Below are positions 461-40,090 of a stretch of 41,290 nucleotides of DNA, one piece after another. Source of the DNA: a virus; the UHGV virus genome UHGV-0387525; one strand, written 5' to 3'. The stretch's first letter is position 1, and each line of letters starts with the position of its first letter. Position numbers and translations under genes: made by a program. The notes beneath the pieces are model-generated. The model made no database searches and had not been told where the DNA came from. It saw nothing but the letters and a program-made list of their open reading frames with translations.

Positions 461-1045
461 ATGAAAAGTATCCAGGACGTCCGCAGGCAAAATCTCAACG
501 ACTTGATCGACCGTGAATTCAATGGTGTTCAGACGCGGATGGCAGAAAAACTTGGAACTCAGGCAAATCTGGTAAACCGCTGGGCTCTTGGCAAGAAGGT
601 TATCGGCGACCAGGTTGCACGAAAAATTGAAGCGGCCGCCAATAAACCCCGTAACTGGCTTGATATTGATCGTTCGCTTTCTCAGGAGGGTTTTCAGCCT
701 GTCGGCCCGAGCGATATAGGTCAGCTGGCGGCTCACAACCTGGAACGCTGGATGAGCGAAAGCCGCGACCTTTCAACACAGGGAAAACTTCACCGCGCAT
801 CCGGCGTCGCCCAGGTGACAATCAGCCGCCTGTTAAACAATGAGGTCAGCGTTTCCATTTCCACCCTGGAGAATGTTGCATCCGCATTCGGGCGTCACGG
901 ATATGAACTACTGATTCACCCGCACGACCCTGCGACTATCAACTATGACCGCTCACGCTACGCATTGTTACCCGAAACCGAGAAAGCAAAGATCGAAAGT
1001 TACATTGAATTTGTCATCAACCAGAACGAAAAAAGCAAACAATAA
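461..1045 (+). CDS. tandem-HTH transcriptional regulator; candidate non-cleavable immunity repressor
   Basis: 194 aa with two XRE-like HTH segments (RMAEKLGTQANLVNRWALGKK and ASGVAQVTISRLLNNEVSVSI); no S24 peptidase-like motif seen; monocistronic, followed by intrinsic terminator; weak RBS. Confidence 0.5.
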   Translation: MKSIQDVRRQNLNDLIDREFNGVQTRMAEKLGTQANLVNRWALGKKVIGDQVARKIEAAANKPRNWLDIDRSLSQEGFQPVGPSDIGQLAAHNLERWMSESRDLSTQGKLHRASGVAQVTISRLLNNEVSVSISTLENVASAFGRHGYELLIHPHDPATINYDRSRYALLPETEKAKIESYIEFVINQNEKSKQ

Positions 1046-5589: not shown

Positions 5590-6846
5590 TTATTTATTAC
5601 TGTCTTCCATCCACTTCTCAAACTTCGACGGGGAGAACGGAATCAGATCCGTATGCTCCCCGTTAATCCAGGAATCAATCATATCGGCCCACTGCTGCAA
5701 CATGTAGGCGCGCTGTCTGGCGTATTCCGCTTTGTTATATACGGCGCGCACACCTTTCTGCTCGTGTGCCAGAGCCTTTTCAATCCAGTCTGAAGGATAA
5801 CCAGCCTCATGCAACAATGTACTGGCTGTACGGCGCATATCATGTACAGTAAAATCCTGAATATGCTCACCATCTTCATTTATTATTTTCACCGTTCTGT
5901 CGATCAGAGAGTTCAGCGCGGCATTAGATAATGGCTTCCGGAAATTGTAACGACCAGGAACCAGATATTCACTTCCACCAGCGCACATCTGCAACCCGAC
6001 TAATATATCCTGTGCCTGTTTAGGCAGGTAAATAACGTGCGCCCGACTTCCCTTCATGCGGTCTGAAGGAATTGTCCATGTCCATTTTTTAAAATCTATT
6101 TCATCCCACGTTGCATTGGTGAATTCTCCCTTACGAACCATGGTGATAAGCACCAGCTTTAAAGCCATTTTCATAGTGCCCATAGCACCAATGGCATCCA
6201 GCGTGCGGAAGAACAGGCCAATTTCTTCTGGTGTCAGTGTTCGCTCTCGTGGTTTAAATATGGCGATAGACGAAGGTTTAATGTCAGCCGCAGGATTAAA
6301 CAAACCATGACCACGGTCATTGGCGTGACGGTATACGCTGCTGATGATCTCCCTGGCCTGTACTGCTGTTGCCCGACCACCGCGTTCGACAATCCGGTCA
6401 CACAAATCACGAACCATTGATGTGGTAATTTCAGCCATCATTTTGTTGCCAAGAACCGGAAGTATGTCACGGTCGATCACCGCCTGCTTCATTGCGCGGG
6501 TACTGTCAGCCAGGATGACGTGTTTCATATAACTGTCGGTATGTACCGCAAACGTCTCGGCACCACGAATCTTTTTAATACCGTCACGTTTAGCCGCAGC
6601 CGGTGACTGGCCTGCTTTAAGCAGCTTCTTTGCAGCAATCAGTTCTTCTCGCGCTTCTGCCAGGCTGATACCGTCACGCCCATACTGCCCGATTACCAGT
6701 GTTTCGCGGCGACCGTTGATACGGTAGTCATAGCGAAACGAGACCGTGCCTGACGTAAGCACAGCTACATACAGCCCGTCACGATCGGAGACCTTGTACA
6801 GTTTGTCCTGCGGCTTGAGGTTTTTTAATTTTGTATCGGTAAGCAC
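5590..6846 (-). CDS. int: tyrosine-type phage integrase
   Basis: 418 aa; C-terminal catalytic region with HDMRRT and LAH...VRAVY motifs (R-H-R-Y pattern). Confidence 0.9.
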   Translation of the reverse strand: MLTDTKLKNLKPQDKLYKVSDRDGLYVAVLTSGTVSFRYDYRINGRRETLVIGQYGRDGISLAEAREELIAAKKLLKAGQSPAAAKRDGIKKIRGAETFAVHTDSYMKHVILADSTRAMKQAVIDRDILPVLGNKMMAEITTSMVRDLCDRIVERGGRATAVQAREIISSVYRHANDRGHGLFNPAADIKPSSIAIFKPRERTLTPEEIGLFFRTLDAIGAMGTMKMALKLVLITMVRKGEFTNATWDEIDFKKWTWTIPSDRMKGSRAHVIYLPKQAQDILVGLQMCAGGSEYLVPGRYNFRKPLSNAALNSLIDRTVKIINEDGEHIQDFTVHDMRRTASTLLHEAGYPSDWIEKALAHEQKGVRAVYNKAEYARQRAYMLQQWADMIDSWINGEHTDLIPFSPSKFEKWMEDSNK

Positions 6847-13720: not shown

Positions 13721-13989
13721 ATTTACATCGCACTCCTCTTGTGCCATAGTAATCGGGCACTGGCAAAATCCAGTGCCGGGATTGGCGTCCCGGATTACTA
13801 AAAGGCGCATTCACCGCGCAAGCGGTTTTTTTATGCGTATAGCACGGCCACATTCGTATTATGGTGGGCTGTGTGGGGGCACCGAAAGGTGCGCCGGGTC
13901 CTTTTAGCCGGTTACGCCAACCCTGCACAGTTCACCACCAACCGATTGGCGTCGGTAGTGGTGATTAACCAGACTAAAAGGTAACCACT
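13721..13989 (+). ncRNA. candidate structured leader / small RNA upstream of ant
   Basis: no credible ORF; hairpins at 13757-13778 and 13776-13793; terminator-like hairpin accgc-gcaa-gcggt + T7 at 13813-13832; decoy SD-like actaaaagg 13797-13805; anti-SD ccttttag 13900-13907. Confidence 0.35.
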
Positions 13990-14685
13990 ATGACAGCTAC
14001 AAAAAGCACGTCCATTTTTTCTTTCGAATCCCAAGCCGATATACGGGTAATCGTCATTAATGGTGAGCCATGGTTTATCGCTTCAGATGTTTGTCGGGCT
14101 ATAGGCATAGCAAACCATCGAGATGCTGTTCGAAAACTTGATGATGATGAGAAGGGCGTCGCTTCAACCGACACCCCTGGCGGTGAGCAAGAATCGATCA
14201 TCATCTCCGAGTCAGGCCTCTACACACTGATCCTCCGCTGCCGCGACGCAGTGACACCAGGCACTATCCCCTACCGCTTTCGCAAATGGGTTACAGGTGA
14301 GGTTCTTCCTCAGATCCGCCGCACCGGAAGTTACATTAAAAACTCGCTCCCGCAGGAAGAACGCATAAAGATGGTTGCCGACCAGGTAGCCAACGCCACA
14401 GCATCAGCAGTAATGCAGGCGATGAAGATAGAGAACAAAACCTACAGCGCCCCACTGAAGCCCGGCTACCGCAGCCTGATTCATTCTCCGTCTGGTGTTC
14501 TCGGCCTGACGGAGAACTCACTGCTGATGAATTTGCTGAACCAGTTGCAGGAAGACGGGCACGATGTATCGGGCGCGGCGGCGGAGCTGACAACCATGTT
14601 TTGCTACATCGTTGGTGTGAGTAAATGCCTGCGTGATATCCAGACTCACGCGGAGTACATCAACGACAAAGCAGGATTCTTCTGA
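13990..14685 (+). CDS. ant: antirepressor with N-terminal Bro-N domain
   Basis: 231 aa; Bro-N-like N-terminus (IRVIVINGEPWFIASDVCRAIGI...ESGLYTLILRCR); C-terminal segment paralogous to 12584..12841. Confidence 0.75.
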   Translation: MTATKSTSIFSFESQADIRVIVINGEPWFIASDVCRAIGIANHRDAVRKLDDDEKGVASTDTPGGEQESIIISESGLYTLILRCRDAVTPGTIPYRFRKWVTGEVLPQIRRTGSYIKNSLPQEERIKMVADQVANATASAVMQAMKIENKTYSAPLKPGYRSLIHSPSGVLGLTENSLLMNLLNQLQEDGHDVSGAAAELTTMFCYIVGVSKCLRDIQTHAEYINDKAGFF

Positions 14686-29505: not shown

Positions 29506-30207
29506 TTATTTGCCATAGAGCACTTCGGCCGCACTACGCTGGCCTTCATTACCACCGGTGACCATGCCATCTTCAGACATCGCCTTTCCGATTTTCACGA
29601 ACGTTTTGACCAGATCAGGGTGATTACCCAGCCCGGTGGTGTTCAGATATTCTTTGAGTTCAGGTGTCCCGAACTGGTCAAGCGCACGCTGTGCGGCGCT
29701 AAGGTTAGAAATCAACTTGTCGCCACCGATTTCTTTGTCAGCTTTTACATCAGCAGCCCACTGCTCGGTTGTTTTCTGCCAGGCTTCTGCCTGGCGCTGC
29801 TGCACACCTGCCAGAATCTTCGGATAAGCATCAACCAGCTTTTGCGCTTGCTCGTTGGTCAGGTTTAGTTCTCGCGCCACCGGCTCGAATTCCTTCAACG
29901 CTTCTGTATCCAGCTCTACGCCTTCGGCAGCCTGAAACTCGTACTTCTCAGGCGCACCCTCTGGTTTATCGCCGCCCTTTTTTTCATCCTGCTTATCGTT
30001 TTCAGGCTTTTTGTCATCAGCAGGTTTATCGCCATCAGCAACAGGTTGTGGCTTATCACCTTCCTGTTGTGATTGATCACCAACTGGAGCAGGGTTATCA
30101 CCTGCAGGCGCTGACGGTTCTGACGCAGCAGGAGCTGCTCCACCATCGACTGGTTGCTCATTGCAAAGACGGCGATACAGCAAACGCTCAAATAAATTCA
30201 TGATCAC
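29506..30207 (-). CDS. scaffolding protein
   Basis: acidic, low-complexity, Pro/Asp/Lys-rich N-half with helical C-half; between portal and capsid; start may be ATG 30201. Confidence 0.55.
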   Translation of the reverse strand: MIMNLFERLLYRRLCNEQPVDGGAAPAASEPSAPAGDNPAPVGDQSQQEGDKPQPVADGDKPADDKKPENDKQDEKKGGDKPEGAPEKYEFQAAEGVELDTEALKEFEPVARELNLTNEQAQKLVDAYPKILAGVQQRQAEAWQKTTEQWAADVKADKEIGGDKLISNLSAAQRALDQFGTPELKEYLNTTGLGNHPDLVKTFVKIGKAMSEDGMVTGGNEGQRSAAEVLYGK

Positions 30208-30500
30208 TCCTGTTCACTGGCCTCTTTGGCCATCTTCAAATACTGTTCAGGGCAATGCGCCATAACGCGCTGAAACAGTTCCAGCGCCAGATTGCGTTGC
30301 CCCTCATTAAATGCCATTGCCATAGCGTCCATCGGTGAGATAGCGGAAAACACACGGCCTTTCTCCAGCACCGACCAGACAACGCGACGCCCCTGTTCAC
30401 TGCTCATGACAAAGCGAATGTCATCAATTTCACGCTGTGCCATGTCACGTTGCTTACGGGCGTTTTCTTCTTTCAGTTGATCGTCTTCGTAATCTGTCAT
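30204..30500 (-). CDS. hypothetical head-assembly protein
   Basis: 98 aa, charged; coupled between portal and scaffold. Confidence 0.35.
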   Translation of the reverse strand: MTDYEDDQLKEENARKQRDMAQREIDDIRFVMSSEQGRRVVWSVLEKGRVFSAISPMDAMAMAFNEGQRNLALELFQRVMAHCPEQYLKMAKEASEQE

Positions 30501-32824: not shown

Positions 32825-32901
32825 GTGGCATTAGCTCAGTTGGACAGAGCAACCGCCTTCTAAGCGGTTGGTCGCAGGTTCGAATCCTGCATGCCACGCC
32901 A
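32825..32901 (+). tRNA. tRNA-Arg (anticodon UCU)
   Basis: manual cloverleaf: acceptor GTGGCAT/ATGCCAC, D-arm GCTC/GAGC, anticodon stem ACCGC/GCGGT with loop CTTCTAA, T-arm GCAGG-TTCGAAT-CCTGC, discriminator G, encoded CCA. Confidence 0.9.
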
Positions 32902-33062
32902 GAATCACGCCTAAGGACCGTGATGCCAGAAGTTCCAGGTGCTTGGCGGTGATAGTTTCCCTTGAAGGACTATCACCGCCCTTTTTACAGCAGGACGCCA
33001 TTGCGATGACTTCATGCTGTAAACCCGTACAGCCACGGAAGGCATAACTCATTGCTTCCAGT

Positions 33063-33088
33063 TCGCCCGGTTCGCCGGGCATTTTTTA
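33063..33088 (+). terminator. rho-independent terminator downstream of tRNA
   Basis: stem gcccgg/ccgggc, loop ttcg, then six T. Confidence 0.7.
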
Positions 33089-33098
33089 AGGTGAGATC

Positions 33099-33518
33099 AT
33101 GAAGACAATTGATATGTTGGCTAAGTATCTAAATGAATGGCCATTAAAATATTCTCGTATCGTTCAGGCTGAAGACTGCATTTTTTATGGCGTTTTTGCT
33201 GGTAATGAAATGCATTACGAAGTAATTCAGAGTGAGGGACTGGCCGGGTTAACTCTTAGCGAAGACCATGGTACTAGCGTTACGTTCCATGACTGGATAA
33301 CAGCACAACGTTCTGAAATGGAAAAAGGCGATGTTTTTGATATTTCTCGCGCTGTTTACGCTAAAGCAAAAAGTGATAATGATTACATGAGCGAACACTT
33401 ATACAACATGAAGTTACAATGCCTGCATGCGGCGCTTATTCAGAATGGGCACTTCGATAAAACAAGTGCCATCAATATTGCGGAAGCCATCAACGCTGGA
33501 TTTAATGCCATTAAGTAA
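33099..33518 (+). CDS. hypothetical accessory protein
   Basis: 139 aa; AAGGTGA RBS before ATG 33099; opposite strand to flanking structural genes. Confidence 0.5.
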   Translation: MKTIDMLAKYLNEWPLKYSRIVQAEDCIFYGVFAGNEMHYEVIQSEGLAGLTLSEDHGTSVTFHDWITAQRSEMEKGDVFDISRAVYAKAKSDNDYMSEHLYNMKLQCLHAALIQNGHFDKTSAINIAEAINAGFNAIK

Positions 33519-33522
33519 CACC

Positions 33523-33534
33523 GTGACATGTCAC
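33523..33534. repeat. 12-bp palindrome GTGACATGTCAC (copy 1)
   Basis: identical to 35974-35985; intergenic. Confidence 0.6.
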
Positions 33535-33538
33535 AAAC

Positions 33539-33566
33539 AGCCAGCCGATGAGCTGGCTTTGTTTTA
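33539..33566 (+). terminator. rho-independent terminator
   Basis: stem agccagc/gctggct, loop cgatga, then TTGTTTT. Confidence 0.55.
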
Positions 33567-33608
33567 TCCTCATCAGAGGATATCAACGACATTATCCCCA
33601 CCAGCGGA

Positions 33609-35084
33609 TTAAGCATATGGATCGTAATCTGTGATGGCCTTGCCTTGCTGGTTCTGCTGCCCGGGAATTCGCAGACGCTTCGACACAGGGAACGCAAACG
33701 TCAGCAGTAGCGCATCGCCTTTACCAGGAGAACGCCCAAGCCGCTCCTTGATATCTTCCTTCGGTTCGATAACGATTTTACCGTCCACTCGAACTTTGTA
33801 CTCTGCCGCAGACAGGTCGTCCGCTGTTTCCTGGTCATCCAGCATGCCGCCCAGCCTCAGCCATGTCTTGCATGAGTTGAACATCTCCCCACGCTTGTTG
33901 AGCATCTGCGGGTCAGTAGACGCGCCACCGAACGGAACAAGTTGCCATGTACGACCCCAGCCATCACCGATTGACTTCAGACCAGTTCCGTAACCGAAGT
34001 CGATGAACACTGCGTCAGCCTGGTACTGGTCTTCAAAGTCAGCGATACGCTTCGCCATAATCAGATCGTCAGTGGTCTTGTTGCCAGTCCACAGCACCTT
34101 ACTGTGCAGCCCCTGCCGCAGGTATATCACAGCGTCATCAACGCCGGAGTATGCCGGGTCAACGCCGATTATCACCGGAGCATGTGCAACCTGCGCAGCG
34201 GTTACCACCCGTTTCATTGCCTCGTCAGTAAGGCCGGTAGGGATAAACTGCAATTCAGATGCATCCGGGAATATGCCGCGCACACGGATTTTAACGAAGT
34301 CGCTGTCTTCCCCGTAGTCATCAACCCATTTCTGCAACTGCTGTTTGTTAGTGCCTTCCACCGTCCGGCTGTCAATCTGCGCAGTTTTCCAGCGGTGTTT
34401 ATATTTGCGGAAACATTCGCGAAAACGCCCGGTGTTACGTGTAGGGTTTCCGAACGCCACCCAGATAATCTCAGTGTCTTCGTCCGTAAGCGCACCCTCA
34501 GCAACTTCCCACACCAGATCCGCAATGTTCGACGCTTCATCGAATACCACGATGATGCGTTTGCGCTCGTTGTGTAGTCCGGCGAATGCCTCAGTGTTGT
34601 GCTCAGACCAGGGTATTGCGTCAGCCCGCCACCGCTTGTCGTGCCCAGGGTCATTGCTGTACATCGCGGTAGCGGTACAGGTAAACCAGTCTTTCGTGAT
34701 AGCAAGGTTCGACCACTTGATAATTTCCGGCCAGGTCTTCGTTCGTAGCTGGTTGTCGGTGTTGGCGGTCACCACGACCTTACAATCCTCGCAAGTGGAC
34801 ATGCCCCAGTTGATCAGCATTGAGATGAATGCGGATTTACCAATACCGTGACCAGAAGCGCGTGCCAACATAAGCGGCTGATAGCGCGTCTCTGGATTCT
34901 GCAGGTGATCACGTATCTCTCGGAACGCATCAGCCTGCCACTGACGTGGGCCGGTAGCATGTGCCAGTTCAGTCCCCTCTTCCCCCCACGGGAACGCATA
35001 GAGGGCATAGCCAAGCGGATCGTGAGTGAACCCTGCAATATCCTCGATTAACTGCTCTTCAGGAGATAACGCTGTATCTGTCAC
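33609..35084 (-). CDS. terminase large subunit
   Basis: 491 aa; Walker A-like ARASGHGIGKS; acidic nuclease-type C-terminal half. Confidence 0.85.
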   Translation of the reverse strand: MTDTALSPEEQLIEDIAGFTHDPLGYALYAFPWGEEGTELAHATGPRQWQADAFREIRDHLQNPETRYQPLMLARASGHGIGKSAFISMLINWGMSTCEDCKVVVTANTDNQLRTKTWPEIIKWSNLAITKDWFTCTATAMYSNDPGHDKRWRADAIPWSEHNTEAFAGLHNERKRIIVVFDEASNIADLVWEVAEGALTDEDTEIIWVAFGNPTRNTGRFRECFRKYKHRWKTAQIDSRTVEGTNKQQLQKWVDDYGEDSDFVKIRVRGIFPDASELQFIPTGLTDEAMKRVVTAAQVAHAPVIIGVDPAYSGVDDAVIYLRQGLHSKVLWTGNKTTDDLIMAKRIADFEDQYQADAVFIDFGYGTGLKSIGDGWGRTWQLVPFGGASTDPQMLNKRGEMFNSCKTWLRLGGMLDDQETADDLSAAEYKVRVDGKIVIEPKEDIKERLGRSPGKGDALLLTFAFPVSKRLRIPGQQNQQGKAITDYDPYA

Positions 35085-35677
35085 TGATTACCATCCTGAC
35101 GTTCTTTGAGTCGCTTCCTGGCTGCTGCTATGCGATCAGCAATTGTCACATTCACATTAACATCCAGGCGTTCTTTGAATGCGTTGACGTCGACGTGCTT
35201 ACCAATCAGTTCGAGGTTCTTCACCTTGTCAGGCCATTTAATTTTTTTGAGGATTGTCTCTATCGAATCCTCGTTCATGTTCATGATGGTCGATGACAGA
35301 TCAAAGCCGCTAAGCGTAGTGCGCCAGATTTTCGGCCACTCGCGGATTGGCTTAAGGCTCCCATCGTCGTTGAGGATGTCGATCACGTCCATCTGGTCGA
35401 TCTCCACCAGGCGCATGAGAACGTAATCAGCACTGACGCGCATTCGTTTGTTGCGCTCCTCCATCAACTCGGCAATCCGTTTCTGAATGCGTTCATCGCG
35501 CATCATGACACTGGCTTTAACTGCCGCTGTATTTGGGGAGAATCCTGCGTTAATCGCAGCCTGAGTCTGATTTTCAGGCGTTTTGATGTATGACTGGCAA
35601 TAAGCCTCCTGCATTGCTGTTAGTGGCTTAAATTGCGTTGATTTGCGTTTATAGGTTTTAGGTTCAGCAGGCATCAT
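35081..35677 (-). CDS. terminase small subunit
   Basis: start moved to MMPAEP (ATG 35677, GGTGG RBS); AAINAGFSPNTAAVKASVMMRDERIQKRI resembles small-terminase DNA-binding region; overlaps terL start. Confidence 0.65.
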   Translation of the reverse strand: MMPAEPKTYKRKSTQFKPLTAMQEAYCQSYIKTPENQTQAAINAGFSPNTAAVKASVMMRDERIQKRIAELMEERNKRMRVSADYVLMRLVEIDQMDVIDILNDDGSLKPIREWPKIWRTTLSGFDLSSTIMNMNEDSIETILKKIKWPDKVKNLELIGKHVDVNAFKERLDVNVNVTIADRIAAARKRLKERQDGNQ

Positions 35678-35684
35678 AACCACC

Positions 35685-35716
35685 GTGGTAATAGTTACCG
35701 TTGTGGTAATAGTACC
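35685..35716. promoter_or_regulatory. two direct repeats GTGGTAATAGT(T)ACC upstream of terS
   Basis: 35685-35699 and 35703-35716; contain GGTAA..TTACC half-sites in reversed order. Confidence 0.4.
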
Positions 35717-35720
35717 ATGC

Positions 35721-35746
35721 AAAATAAAGCCGCCATAGTTGGCGGC
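35721..35746 (-). terminator. terminator between small gene and terS
   Basis: stem gccgcca/tggcggc, loop tagt; on minus strand followed by TTTATTTT. Confidence 0.55.
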
Positions 35747-35751
35747 AGTAT

Positions 35752-35964
35752 TCAAAGTCCATCAAATTCATCGTAAAAACTCTCGTCAAGATACCCTTTC
35801 CATTTACCGCGAATGAAAATTACATCCTCGCCGCAAGGGTGCTGACTGTCGATAACTATATCCCTCCTGGCGCAACCATACTTATGCATGAGAAATTTAA
35901 CCTCTTTCGGAAAATTAGCTGAGTTATCTCTCATATCTTCAAGGTCGTAGCGTATTTTTGGCAT
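35752..35964 (-). CDS. small hypothetical protein
   Basis: 70 aa from ATG 35964 with AAGGTG RBS. Confidence 0.4.
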   Translation of the reverse strand: MPKIRYDLEDMRDNSANFPKEVKFLMHKYGCARRDIVIDSQHPCGEDVIFIRGKWKGYLDESFYDEFDGL

Positions 35965-35973
35965 AACACCTTC

Positions 35974-35985
35974 GTGACATGTCAC
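35974..35985. repeat. 12-bp palindrome GTGACATGTCAC (copy 2)
   Basis: identical to 33523-33534; between genes 35982..36323 and 35752..35964. Confidence 0.6.
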
Positions 35986-36323
35986 ACTATTAATTTCGTT
36001 TCATGCCAGCCTTTGGTCACCCAGCATTGCGAGTCACCATTACACGGGCATGAATTAACTGGAACTCTCTCGCCGCACTTACCGCAACGTTTTCTGCTGA
36101 TCGATTTTATACGCCCGCGCACCCGGGCATCATCCTGGCGGATCAGCAGCGCGATGTACTCGGCCATTTCATAGGGATCTCGACCAGGGCGCCGGGCGGC
36201 GCAGTTCCGCTCCAGCATTTCAATTTCCTGAGCATCAAGCACAATCTCCAGCTTACGCACACCAGATGCAGCTTGTCTGGCTCTCTGAGCGGCTTTGCGC
36301 TCTGCTGCTGATTTAGCCATCAA
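35982..36323 (-). CDS. basic protein with C-terminal Cys cluster (possible zinc-binding regulator)
   Basis: 113 aa; CGKCGERVPVNSCPCNGDSQC; upstream of packaging genes. Confidence 0.4.
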   Translation of the reverse strand: MMAKSAAERKAAQRARQAASGVRKLEIVLDAQEIEMLERNCAARRPGRDPYEMAEYIALLIRQDDARVRGRIKSISRKRCGKCGERVPVNSCPCNGDSQCWVTKGWHETKLIV

Positions 36324-39307: not shown

Positions 39308-40090
39308 TTACTTGATAAATCCTGCCGCCTTTCCCCGCCTGTATTCCTCCATCAGCCACTGCGCCGGTGTTATTCCCCCAAGGGTGGCGGCGTTAGGCAT
39401 GCACCCGAAACTTCGCCCTGGTGGATGGTAAACGTCTCTCCCTGTGTCCGGAGGTGTACTCATGGGTTCTGGCTTTGCCTGTATGCTGATCACCGGATCG
39501 GGTATCTGCTGTCCGGAAGCCACCTTTTTCGCCCAATCATCGAGCAGCCTGCGCGCGTGTTTCTCAACCTCAATCTCGCTAAGCTGGCGCTGATACATTG
39601 CACGGCGGGTATCACATACGACCCAGTACATAACCGGATGTCGCCACGGGAATCTTTCGGGACCACCAGGATATAAACTTTTTTCCTTGCTGTACCGGTG
39701 AAACTCCGCCATCACATCGTCAATGGTGACGCCAAGAACCATCTTGCTGTCTTTGCACCACTTGATGAATTGCCCAGGCGACGGCCAGAACGGAGATTCA
39801 CTGGCGCGGGCGTGGCGCATACCAGCGTTAACCTGTTCCATTGTTGTGATCCCATTCTCCAGAAACGCAAGCATCCATTGTTTTCGAAATTCGTTTAGCT
39901 TTCCTTGCTCGCTGATAGCAGCGATGCTGCCTGGAAATGCAGCCTGTAACTGGACAAACATTTCGTTGAAAATTCTTGCAACCTGCTCCTTCTTTGCCCT
40001 TTCATCGTCAGCAGAAGCAACCGCCGTCGAGTGGTCATGCCCACCACGAAAGCGATCGTACTCATTAAGAAGTTCTGGAGTTGATTTCAT
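39308..40090 (-). CDS. replication protein P-like helicase loader
   Basis: RKQWMLAFLENGITTMEQVNAGMRHAR...PSPGQFIKWC closely matches lambda P as recalled; start at ATG 40090 with GAGGTG RBS. Confidence 0.85.
   Translation of the reverse strand: MKSTPELLNEYDRFRGGHDHSTAVASADDERAKKEQVARIFNEMFVQLQAAFPGSIAAISEQGKLNEFRKQWMLAFLENGITTMEQVNAGMRHARASESPFWPSPGQFIKWCKDSKMVLGVTIDDVMAEFHRYSKEKSLYPGGPERFPWRHPVMYWVVCDTRRAMYQRQLSEIEVEKHARRLLDDWAKKVASGQQIPDPVISIQAKPEPMSTPPDTGRDVYHPPGRSFGCMPNAATLGGITPAQWLMEEYRRGKAAGFIK

What the first reader, a model, noticed from the sequence alone, without database searches (positions are those of the whole stretch)
33523..35985. Identical 12-bp palindrome GTGACATGTCAC bracketing the terminase block
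Exact copies at 33523-33534 and 35974-35985, both intergenic, flank the segment carrying a small gene, terS and terL. A given 12-mer is expected about 0.005 times per 41 kb, so two copies are unlikely by chance. Possibilities are a paired binding site for a late regulator (the Cys-cluster protein 35982..36323 is adjacent), a packaging-related site, or boundaries of an exchanged module.
Basis: seen in the sequence. Interest (0 to 1): 0.55.

Follow-up and report, generated by a model that had tools for sequence, protein, structure and literature searches.

The report
Binding sites of a phage ribbon-helix-helix protein
The two identical palindromes are real and are copies of a 14-bp site that occurs together with the small DNA-binding protein gene beside it in many unrelated temperate phages, so they are almost certainly that protein's docking sites, usually placed at the ends of transcription units just before terminators; what the docking does is not yet known.

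Summary
GTGACATGTCAC occurs exactly twice (33523, 35974; none expected), as a shared 14-mer cGTGACATGTCACa. The window is an epsilon15/phiV10-like (Uetakevirus) phage.

The 112-aa Cys-cluster ORF beside copy 2 (35982-36320, minus strand) has a ribbon-helix-helix fold plus a C-terminal Cys cluster. Copy 2 overlaps its TGA stop. Homologues occur in at least five unrelated phage types: Uetakevirus, Pectobacterium ZF40, Yersinia P2-like, a Vibrio siphophage and N15-like phages. All those examined carry 1-4 copies of YGTGACNNGTCACR, usually one on the gene's own stop codon.

- Gene-bearing loci: 51 sites in 0.64 Mb (0.6 expected).
- Gene-less lambdoid loci: nothing in 1.18 Mb beyond one coding-sequence coincidence.
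- The centre dinucleotide tracks the predicted DNA-reading beta-strand.

The palindromes are therefore almost certainly this protein's operators. About 30% of sites lie 0-30 nt upstream of an intrinsic terminator (3% expected; 4:1 over the reverse order). In this phage's close relatives both lie at conserved/variable junctions. It is not a packaging signal, and the terminase block is the conserved part, not the exchanged module.

What binding does is inferred only; control of read-through at these boundaries is most likely. This is a new regulator-operator pair with an unusual 3'-end placement.

The parts
33522..33535 (.). Site 1: cGTGACATGTCACa, fitting the family dyad YGTGACNNGTCACR
   Evidence: Exact match. 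It lies 4 nt after the stop of the plus-strand ORF and 4 nt before the terminator. The equivalent site after terL is present in epsilon15, SPN1S, Tyrion and Kp4865-1, and in 59 of 78 close relatives.
35973..35986 (.). Site 2: cGTGACATGTCACa, overlapping the TGA stop of the ribbon-helix-helix gene
   Evidence: Exact match. The stop lies at 35982-35984 on the minus strand. The same register, G-TGA-C, is found in 19 of 34 loci from other species. The site is exact in 77 of 79 close relatives.
35982..36320 (-). Gene for a 112-aa ribbon-helix-helix plus Cys-cluster protein (epsilon15 gp49 / phiV10 p55 / N15 gp46 family; PHROG 536), the proposed binder of the sites
35752..35964 (-). 70-aa accessory ORF (PHROG 1541) inserted between site 2 and the terminator; a present/absent cassette
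   Evidence: A Shine-Dalgarno sequence (GAAGG) and ATG lie 9 nt after the site. PHROG 1541. Breakpoints fall at 35772 (58 loci) and 35972 (53 loci) among relatives.
35720..35746 (-). Intrinsic terminator closing the early-right transcription unit, ahead of terS
   Evidence: GCCGCCAACTATGGCGGC followed by TTTATTTTG. It is homologous to the terminator annotated at 39646-39672 of epsilon15.
35685..35713 (.). Repressor-operator-like repeats (GGTAATAGTTACC / TTACCGTTGTGGTAA) upstream of terS; a different motif from the finding
   Evidence: Direct repeat D6. It corresponds to the 'repressor' binding site annotated at 12-27 of epsilon15. It is one of 11 TTACC-N5-GGTAA sites in the window.
35081..35677 (-). 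terS (small terminase); the start is most likely the ATGATG at 35677/35674
   Evidence: Pfam PF03592, E 1.4e-29. The start was chosen by alignment with epsilon15 terS.
33609..35084 (-). terL (large terminase)
   Evidence: Annotated as terL in phiV10, PAS61 and epsilon15. 80 IMG/VR relatives are at least 99% identical.
33539..33566 (+). Intrinsic terminator for the plus-strand accessory gene, 4 nt after site 1; weak in the opposite direction
   Evidence: AGCCAGCCGATGAGCTGGCT followed by TTGTTTT. The same AGCCAGC/GCTGGCT stem follows a site in Serratia and Symbiopectobacterium prophages.
33099..33518 (+). 139-aa convergent accessory ORF (PHROG 4846); a replaceable cassette ending TAACACC plus site
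   Evidence: PHROG 4846. Breakpoints fall at 33103 and 33516. At least three unrelated genes occupy this slot in relatives, each with its stop 4 nt from the site.

Best explanation
The two palindromes are operators for the 112-aa ribbon-helix-helix/Cys-cluster protein encoded at 35982-36320. A dimer is proposed to read each 14-bp dyad YGTGACNNGTCACR, with the paired beta-strands on the centre (inferred from the fold and the covariation).

Gene and site form a conserved cassette: one site sits on the gene's own stop codon and one to three more lie elsewhere in the genome. In this phage the sites lie in the transcribed 3' ends of two transcription units:
- the early-right operon, which ends with the regulator gene itself;
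- the convergent accessory gene downstream of terL, where the site sits immediately before that gene's intrinsic terminator.

The most likely effect of binding is control of how much transcription crosses these boundaries. That would insulate the terS-terL unit from early-operon read-through on one side and from the convergent gene on the other.

Shown here: the gene-site association, the fold, and the site-to-terminator geometry. Inferred: physical binding, and any effect on RNA polymerase.
For: Association of gene and site:
- Homologues of the protein occur in Uetakevirus, Pectobacterium myovirus ZF40, a Yersinia P2-like phage, Vibrio siphophage K308, and N15 and KpLi5.
- Each of these genomes has GTGAC-NN-GTCAC sites, against about 0.04 expected per genome: epsilon15 3 plus one degenerate copy; SPN1S 3 plus one copy with 1 mismatch; Tyrion 3; Kp4865-1 3; BUCT711 4; ZF40 3; N15 3; KpLi5 3; K308 3; Yersinia phage 1.
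- In 34 loci from other species there are 51 sites in 639 kb (0.6 expected). 33 of 34 loci have at least one, 24 have one within -15 to +60 nt of the gene's stop, and 19 are in the same register G-TGA-C.
- Control: 1.18 Mb of lambdoid loci without the gene hold only one recurrent coding-sequence copy and nothing else.
- Reverse test: 46 of 120 IMG/VR stretches picked by the 14-mer alone encode the gene, 40 of them with the gene's end within 10 nt of the site.

Recognition:
- Flanking positions that the search did not impose are constrained: Y in 145 of 148 at -1 (each site was counted in both orientations, so R at +12 is the mirror of the same signal). Nothing beyond that is conserved.
- The centre dinucleotide tracks the predicted beta-strand: AT with [RK]K[LIF]EL.LD, GC with INEIRARLE, TG with TRRDWVLE.

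Placement:
- 54 of 78 sites lie outside long ORFs, against 18% of random positions.
- A terminator stem starts within 30 nt after the site in 24 of 78 and 35 of 116 contexts, against 3% at random.
- The order site-then-terminator outnumbers terminator-then-site 58 to 14, and 42 of the 58 are 0-5 nt apart.
Against: - No binding has been measured.
- The protein has no detectable sequence relation to a characterised regulator: no Pfam family, no sequence match to a solved structure, and only weak hits to YbfE and RepB-RCR_reg.
- A single 12-14-bp site bound by one small dimer is usually a weak obstacle to RNA polymerase.
- Some exact sites lie inside genes that must be transcribed: N15 and KpLi5 repA, the ZF40 cII-like gene, and a structural gene in Kp4865-1 and BUCT711. 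A strong block there would be harmful.
- In Serratia-type prophages the site and terminator sit between the scaffold and capsid genes, where read-through is needed. That fits antitermination better than insulation.
- Site 1 is absent or mutated in 19 of 78 close relatives, so it is dispensable.
- The covariation rests on only 3-4 independent clades, and two Pantoea loci with a CT centre keep the AT-type strand.
Confidence: 0.55

Rival explanations
1. Q-like switch by local antitermination. The protein bound just upstream of a terminator contacts RNA polymerase as it pauses at the U-tract and lets it read through. Early-right transcription would then continue into terS-terL and the late genes once enough protein has been made.
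For: - In Uetakevirus the gene is the last gene of the early-right operon, directly before a terminator and terS, which is the position Q holds in lambda.
- No Q or N homologue is annotated in epsilon15, SPN1S or Tyrion.
- Sites lie upstream of terminators 58 to 14, mostly 0-5 nt away.
- A site plus terminator sits between scaffold and capsid genes in Serratia-type prophages, where read-through is needed.
- Sites inside operons are harmless under this model.
Against: - At site 1 the terminator that follows the site ends the convergent accessory gene, so read-through there would send antisense transcription into terL.
- Repressor-operator-like sites upstream of terS, the head operon and the tailspike gene imply separate late promoters.
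- ZF40, N15 and KpLi5 have their own Q-like genes.
- A 212-bp ORF lies between site 2 and its terminator here, and the spacing varies from 0 to 25 nt or more elsewhere.
- No ribbon-helix-helix antiterminator is known (own knowledge).
Confidence: 0.15
2. DNA bridging or looping, as with MatP/matS. Dimers on separate sites pair through the C-terminal domain. In Uetakevirus this would form a loop of about 2.4 kb around terS-terL, or it would organise the phage chromosome, without acting on polymerase at the site itself.
For: - There are 2-4 dispersed single sites per genome, and the pair flanking terS-terL recurs in Escherichia, Salmonella, Klebsiella, Enterobacter, Citrobacter and other hosts at +2.2 to +3.2 kb.
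- The site lies beside the gene for its binder, as with parS and sopC (own knowledge).
Against: - No oligomerisation domain was identified.
- The Yersinia P2-like phages have a single site.
- The downstream partner is missing in 13 of 78 close relatives.
- Bridging does not explain the 4:1 preference for lying upstream of terminators.
Confidence: 0.1
3. Conventional promoter regulator. The sites are operators at or near promoters that the protein activates (a late activator) or represses.
For: - Ribbon-helix-helix proteins are typically promoter-bound repressors (own knowledge).
- In N15 and KpLi5 one site lies a conserved 24 nt upstream of the -35 of a TTGACG-18-TAGAGT/TAAAGT promoter-like sequence ahead of the antirepressor operon.
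- In Vibrio K308 sites lie 18-19 nt before the start codons of terS and another gene.
Against: - In this window no sigma-70-like promoter is found at either site.
- The Shine-Dalgarno sequence of the next gene starts 3 nt after site 2, leaving no room for a promoter.
- The distance from site 2 to the terS promoter region varies by about 190 bp among close relatives.
- Sites B and C of epsilon15 lie at convergent gene ends, hundreds of nt from the next promoter.
Confidence: 0.08
4. Recombination or module-exchange signal. The sites are short conserved linkers at which accessory cassettes are swapped, possibly with the protein synapsing them.
For: - Homology breakpoints among 80 relatives fall at 33516 and 35972, within 1-7 nt of the sites.
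- At least three unrelated genes occupy the slot next to site 1, all ending TAACACC plus site.
- One relative (L035) has two cassettes in tandem, each with its own terminator and site.
- The site plus the AGCCAGC terminator recurs in unrelated Serratia-type prophages.
Against: - Any conserved functional island next to a variable slot will show breakpoints at its edge.
- 12-14 bp is short for homologous exchange, and no recombinase is linked to the sites.
- Sites inside coding sequence (repA, cII-like) are not junctions.
- Exchange does not explain the covariation of site centre and protein.
Confidence: 0.06
5. Site for a host protein (MatP, SlmA or similar), or an RNA element in the 3' untranslated region, with the neighbouring phage gene irrelevant.
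For: - matS is GTGACRNYGTCAC and the SlmA site is GTGAGTACTCAC (own knowledge); both resemble the motif.
- The sites are transcribed, and most that lie next to a terminator precede it.
- All phages carrying the sites infect Enterobacterales or Vibrio.
Against: - The spacer is 2 nt, not the 3 nt of matS. True matS sites are reported as absent from 500 Escherichia and Salmonella prophages.
- Positions 5 and 8 differ from the SlmA site.
- Gene-less lambdoid loci from the same kind of host have no sites.
- The centre dinucleotide changes with the phage protein, not with the host.
- The RNA hairpin is worth only -1.2 kcal/mol, there is no Rfam match, and centre changes keep the DNA symmetric (AT, GC) in the main clades.
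Confidence: 0.04
6. Packaging signal (pac or cos accessory site) for the terminase encoded between the copies.
For: The two copies bracket terS-terL here and in many Uetakeviruses. K308 has a site 18 nt before terS.
Against: - There are several sites per genome, including at the end of the tail/internal-protein operon and after the lysis genes in epsilon15 and SPN1S.
- Sites are present in N15 and KpLi5 (N15 has lambda-like cohesive ends), tens of kb from cos (N15 coordinates; equivalent genes in KpLi5).
- Sites are present in ZF40 far from its terminase genes.
- The association is with the ribbon-helix-helix gene, not with a terminase type.
Confidence: 0.02

Closest known systems
MatP / matS (Ter macrodomain organiser of Enterobacterales and Vibrio)
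   Different: The spacer is 2 nt here against 3 nt in matS. hhalign against E. coli MatP finds no relation (probability 0.06%). MatP's four-helix bundle is not detected and a Cys cluster replaces its C-terminal coiled coil. True matS sites are reported as avoided in prophages. The sites here sit at gene ends next to terminators.
Ribbon-helix-helix repressors with palindromic operators (P22 Arc and Mnt, CopG, omega, TacA/ParD-type antitoxins)
   Same: The fold is the same, the site is short and dyad-symmetric, and the protein is small and presumably dimeric. There are weak profile hits to YbfE and to RepB-RCR_reg.
   Different: Those operators overlap the promoter of the regulated, usually own, operon. 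Here the operator overlaps the gene's own stop codon and lies in transcribed 3' ends, with no promoter found at it. There is an extra C-terminal Cys-cluster domain.
Lambda Q and its binding element (late antitermination)
   Same: In Uetakevirus the gene is the last early gene before a terminator and the late genes, and the protein is a DNA-site-dependent factor with a Cys-cluster domain. The site-to-terminator geometry could place a bound protein behind a paused polymerase (inference).
   Different: There is no promoter or sigma-dependent pause element between site and terminator. There is no match to any Q family. Q-bearing phages (ZF40, N15, KpLi5) also carry this protein.
Global regulators of mobile elements with dispersed identical palindromes (KorA/KorB of IncP plasmids; SopB sites dispersed in N15) and ParB-parS adjacency
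   Same: There are several identical 12-14-bp palindromes spread over one mobile genome, with one site immediately downstream of the binder's gene (own knowledge for the comparators; for this system).
   Different: No partition ATPase is linked, most hosts are integrating prophages, and the fold differs from KorB and ParB.

Membership tests
Ribbon-helix-helix (MetJ/Arc/CopG) DNA-binding proteins | Beta-strand, helix, helix fold | tested here: met
Ribbon-helix-helix (MetJ/Arc/CopG) DNA-binding proteins | Significant sequence match to a curated family | tested here: not met
   The window protein has no Pfam family even at E <= 10. NCBIfam YbfE scores 13.9 bits against a cut-off of 62. A Vibrio homologue scores 14.5 bits against PF10723, cut-off 21.
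Ribbon-helix-helix (MetJ/Arc/CopG) DNA-binding proteins | Dimer binds a dyad-symmetric or repeated DNA site | not testable with these tools
   Support is indirect only: gene-site co-occurrence, the 14-bp dyad, and covariation of the centre with the beta-strand.
Ribbon-helix-helix (MetJ/Arc/CopG) DNA-binding proteins | Operator overlaps the promoter of the regulated operon | tested here: not met
   There is no promoter-like site at either copy. Site 2 overlaps the gene's stop codon and abuts the next Shine-Dalgarno sequence.
MatP/matS | 13-bp site GTGACRNYGTCAC | tested here: not met
   Both window copies, and 51 of 51 sites in 34 loci, have a 2-nt spacer; those loci contain no 13-mers.
MatP/matS | Protein homologous to MatP (four-helix bundle, ribbon-helix-helix, coiled coil) | tested here: not met
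   hhalign probability is 0.06% and a profile search of PDB sequences does not find MatP. Only the ribbon-helix-helix part superposes.
Lambda-type Q antiterminator with its binding element | Binding element lies within a constitutive promoter followed by a pause site and a terminator | tested here: not met
   No conserved promoter lies between site and terminator. A 70-aa ORF is inserted there in this window, and the spacing varies among relatives.
Lambda-type Q antiterminator with its binding element | Gene is the last early gene, directly upstream of the late operon | tested here: met
   This holds for the window, epsilon15, SPN1S and Tyrion. It does not hold for ZF40, N15 or K308.
Lambda-type Q antiterminator with its binding element | Raises read-through of downstream terminators | not testable with these tools
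   This needs in vitro transcription or Term-seq.
pac/cos packaging site | Single site at or near the terminase genes, at which packaging starts | tested here: not met
   There are 2-4 sites per genome, and sites are present in N15 far from cos. Virion ends were not examined.
SlmA-binding sequence | GTGAGTACTCAC consensus (own knowledge) | tested here: not met
   Positions 5-8 are CATG here, not GTAC.

The most novel reading that the evidence does not exclude
The ribbon-helix-helix/Cys-cluster protein is a new kind of DNA-site-dependent elongation factor. It is loaded from YGTGACNNGTCACR sites lying 0-25 nt upstream of intrinsic terminators and decides whether RNA polymerase stops or reads through. 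In epsilon15-like phages, which lack Q and N, it would supply the early-to-late switch. The site on the gene's own stop codon would make the switch depend on how much of the protein has been made.
Probability: 0.15. Interest if true: 0.8.

Novelty: new variant of a known kind. Interest (0 to 1): 0.6.

Why it matters
- It assigns a DNA target to a phage protein family with no described function: PHROG 536, comprising 241 clusters at 50% identity. The family is present in the model phages epsilon15, phiV10, SPN1S/SPC32H, N15 and ZF40, and in many enterobacterial and Vibrio prophages.
- The operator sits on the gene's own stop codon and just ahead of terminators. This is not how ribbon-helix-helix regulators are normally arranged, and it points to regulation at the ends of transcription units rather than at their starts.
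- For epsilon15-like phages, whose late control is unexplained, it gives a testable candidate.
- The clade-specific centre dinucleotides (AT, GC, TG) offer ready-made orthogonal protein-site pairs.
- The sites also mark the slots where accessory genes are swapped, which helps in reading mosaic prophage genomes.

Tried and rejected
- Promoter at the sites. The palindrome contains GTGACA, which resembles a -35 element. In epsilon15 and SPN1S a TAAATT lies 17 nt downstream, but this is not kept in the window, in phiV10 or at the other sites, and the scan finds no promoter.
- Homology to MatP. The sequence recalled from memory was checked against PDB entry 4d8j and is identical, but hhalign finds nothing.
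- Sequence searches for a known domain. Pfam, NCBIfam, PADLOC and PDB sequences give nothing significant. Foldseek against the PDB and against viral models is uninformative.
- First structure prediction. A 15-sequence alignment gave a poor model (pLDDT 58.7).
- RNA reading. The hairpin is only -1.2 kcal/mol, and there is no Rfam family at the sites.
- Apparent sites in antiterminator genes. The 12-mer lies at codons 2-5 of a Q82-type gene, in the zinc finger of a lambda-Q-type gene, and in cII-like genes. For the Q82-type gene, 80 loci showed no ribbon-helix-helix gene and no second site, so this is a coding-sequence coincidence amplified by relatedness. The lambda-Q-type copy was not checked in the same way. 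The cII-like copy does co-occur with the gene in ZF40 and two IMG/VR stretches (L154, L161).
- A natural knock-out. BUCT711 was examined as a possible Uetakevirus without the gene, but it has both gene and sites.
- Literature. No paper in the library holds the 12-mer or its variants in a phage context. The ZX5 paper deals with the repressor, antirepressor and integrase only.
- Tools. The afdb50 fold library was not available.


Full report
**1. Observation**

GTGACATGTCAC occurs at 33523-33534 and 35974-35985 and nowhere else in the window. No copies appeared in 100 shuffles. The identity extends to the 14-mer cGTGACATGTCACa. The only near-copy, with one mismatch, is at 30437 in coding sequence.

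The window contains seven perfect 12-bp palindromes and only this one is repeated. 1.7% of simulated sequences contain any repeated 12-bp palindrome. The window alone is therefore suggestive rather than decisive.

**2. Setting**

The window matches epsilon15/phiV10-like podophages of the genus Uetakevirus. It looks like a complete, circularly permuted genome. The repressor (HTH_3) is at 461..1045, the probable integrase ORF at 5590..6846, the late genes are on the minus strand, and the early-right genes run from the right end down to 35982 (inference from the gene order of epsilon15).

Read on the minus strand, the local order is:
- the 112-aa Cys-cluster gene (36320-35982);
- site 2, overlapping its TGA;
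- a Shine-Dalgarno sequence and a 70-aa ORF (35964-35752);
- an intrinsic terminator (35746-35720);
- repressor-operator-like repeats (35713-35685);
- terS, then terL (to 33609);
- a hairpin (33558-33539);
- site 1;
- the 3' end of a convergent plus-strand ORF (33518-33099).

Copy 2 is thus not strictly intergenic.

**3. Conservation within the genus**

Epsilon15 is about 80% identical in DNA. It has three exact copies: after terL, on the TGA of gp18 just before a terminator, and on the TGA of gp49 22 nt before a terminator. A degenerate copy lies on the stop of Rz. Other members:
- SPN1S: the same three, plus a copy with one mismatch.
- Tyrion: three, one split by the ends of the record.
- Kp4865-1: three.
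- BUCT711: four.
- phiV10: the record is cut inside the upstream copy (GTGA|CATGTTAC).

The flanks differ between these phages while the 12-mer does not. Among 80 IMG/VR relatives with at least 99% identical TerL, the upstream site is exact in 77 of 79. The site after terL is exact in 59 of 78, has one mismatch in 6, and is absent in 13.

**4. Link to the neighbouring gene**

The 112-aa protein belongs to PHROG 536, has no Pfam family, and has no sequence match to a solved structure. tblastn finds homologues in other kinds of phage. Every one examined carries GTGAC-NN-GTCAC sites:

| Phage | Protein identity to the window protein | Sites |
|---|---|---|
| ZF40 (myovirus) | 69% | three, one 3 nt after the gene's stop |
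| Yersinia P2-like phage | 43% | GTGACGCGTCAC on the stop |
| Vibrio K308 | 32% | three 12-mers, one 18 nt before terS |
| N15 | 32% | three GTGACTGGTCAC: on the gp46 stop, in repA, and upstream of the antirepressor operon |
| KpLi5 | 37% | the same three positions as N15 |

A scan of one genome per species gave 34 loci from Erwinia, Pantoea, Providencia, Proteus, Serratia, Citrobacter, Klebsiella, Yersinia and others. They hold 51 sites in 639 kb (0.6 expected). 33 of 34 loci have at least one site, 24 have one at the gene's end, and 19 are in the identical register G-TGA-C.

As a control, 80 lambdoid loci without the gene (1.18 Mb) contain only one recurrent copy, at codons 2-5 of a Q-type gene, and no other site. 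In the reverse direction, 46 of 120 IMG/VR stretches chosen only for holding the 14-mer encode the gene, 40 of them with the gene's end at the site.

**5. What the protein is and how it may read the site**

Aligning all sites shows a constraint the search did not impose: a pyrimidine before the 12-mer (145 of 148; each site was counted in both orientations, so the purine after it is the mirror of the same signal). This gives YGTGACNNGTCACR, and nothing further out is conserved.

The centre dinucleotide follows the predicted beta-strand: AT with [RK]K[LIF]EL.LD, GC with INEIRARLE, TG with TRRDWVLE. This rests on few independent clades. Two Pantoea loci with a CT centre keep the AT-type strand.

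**6. Where the sites sit**

54 of 78 sites lie outside long ORFs, against 18% of random positions. An intrinsic terminator begins within 30 nt after the site in 24 of 78 sites of gene-bearing genomes. The figure is 35 of 116 distinct contexts in the independent IMG/VR sample. By comparison it is 3% at random positions and 6% after stops of long ORFs.

Because the site is symmetric, the order is informative. Site-then-terminator outnumbers terminator-then-site 58 to 14, and 42 of the 58 are 0-5 nt apart. The same site plus an AGCCAGC...GCTGGCT terminator seen at 33523-33566 recurs between scaffold and capsid genes of Serratia and Symbiopectobacterium prophages.

Exact sites also occur inside genes: repA of N15 and KpLi5, a cII-like gene of ZF40, and a structural gene in Kp4865-1 and BUCT711.

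**7. Mosaic junctions**

Among the 80 relatives, homology breakpoints pile up at 33103 and 33516 (the edges of the plus-strand ORF) and at 35772 and 35972 (the edges of the 70-aa ORF). At least three unrelated genes occupy the slot beside site 1, each ending TAACACC plus site. One of them belongs to the Phage_gp49_66 family.

The sites and the terminase genes are the conserved part. The accessory ORFs next to them are what is exchanged.

**8. Mechanism**

The pairing of protein and site is well supported; I put it at about 0.8. What binding does is inferred.

The sites lie in transcribed 3' ends immediately before terminators. No promoter is detectable at them, and the Shine-Dalgarno sequence of the next gene starts 3 nt after site 2. 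Action on polymerase crossing a unit boundary therefore seems more likely than action at a promoter.

I favour an insulating role, at about 0.3. At site 1 the following terminator belongs to the convergent gene, so read-through there would be harmful. In addition, repressor-operator-like sites imply separate promoters for terS, the head operon and the tailspike gene.

Antitermination (about 0.15) fits the gene's Q-like position and the site between scaffold and capsid genes. Looping, a conventional promoter role, recombination, a host factor, an RNA element and packaging are less likely, for the reasons given under the rival explanations.

**9. Comparison with known systems**

matS has the same half-sites but a 3-nt spacer, and is reported as avoided in prophages. 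MatP shows no sequence relation to this protein. Classical ribbon-helix-helix repressors share the fold but bind at promoters. Lambda Q shares the genomic position in Uetakevirus but not the promoter-embedded site or the protein family.

No paper in the searchable library mentions the motif in phages.

I rate this a new variant of a known kind: a ribbon-helix-helix regulator whose operator sits at 3' ends, including its own stop codon.

Noticed in passing
window 391, 1103, 1165, 12493, 13613, 13706, 14758, 32488, 35695, 39194, 39256: There are eleven copies of TTACC-N5-GGTAA, the motif annotated as repressor binding sites in epsilon15. They flank the repressor gene and precede terS, the head operon, the tailspike gene and the antirepressor region. 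This suggests the late units are repressed directly in the lysogen.
   Followed up: partly
window 13757-13942 (+), upstream of 13990..14685: Rfam finds isrK (77.9 bits) and a C4 antisense RNA (77.7 bits) directly upstream of a Bro-N antirepressor gene. This is a P1/N15-style antirepressor control locus.
   Followed up: no
window 32825-32901 (+): A tRNA-Arg (anticodon TCT) overlaps, on the opposite strand, the 83-aa ORF 32831..33082 that phiV10 and TL-2011b annotate as a protein gene. Two plus-strand terminators follow it (32945-32980, 33065-33080).
   Followed up: no
window 30437-30448: A one-mismatch copy, GTGCCATGTCAC, lies inside the ORF 30204..30500 and is kept in many of the 80 close relatives. 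It is probably held by coding constraint, but a weak third site is not excluded.
   Followed up: no
L089 12697-12790; L129 370-442; L114 10541-10620: In Klebsiella and Erwinia relatives the slot after the upstream site holds a near-consensus promoter (TTGACT ... TATACT) overlapped by a LexA-box-like sequence (TACTGTTTAAATATACAGTA), followed by a gene of about 109 aa. This is an SOS-controlled insert at the same junction.
   Followed up: no
L105 15390-15440; L112 15407; L113 18126: Serratia and Symbiopectobacterium prophages carry stop, 4 nt, site, 4 nt and an AGCCAGC...GCTGGCT terminator between scaffold and major capsid genes. This is nearly the same composite element as at window 33516-33566.
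   Followed up: partly
L092 19491-19503: Vibrio phage K308 has one 13-bp copy, GTGACACCGTCAC, which fits the matS consensus. It overlaps the TGA of a small membrane-protein gene and is followed by a T-run.
   Followed up: no
L136, L141, L146, L198, L239 (Q82-type gene start); L183, L185, L191, L202 and others (lambda-Q-type zinc finger): The same 12-mer is embedded in two unrelated antiterminator gene families, coding MRDMSQ and VTCH. For the Q82 type it is unlinked to the ribbon-helix-helix gene. The lambda-Q-type copy was not checked.
   Followed up: partly
L148, L167, L177, L196, L234: Some IMG/VR contigs show arrays of GTGAC/GTCAC half-sites around a full palindrome, looking like iterons. 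They may belong to a different system that uses the same half-site.
   Followed up: no
L096 10355 and 10387: A Providencia prophage has two full sites 32 bp apart, flanking the stop codon of its ribbon-helix-helix gene. This tandem arrangement was not seen elsewhere.
   Followed up: no
L088 38348-38656: In SPN1S the regulator gene has a different N-terminus (MATTTTRRQNLLELELVLD...). It lacks the basic N-terminal helix but keeps the beta-strand and all sites.
   Followed up: no
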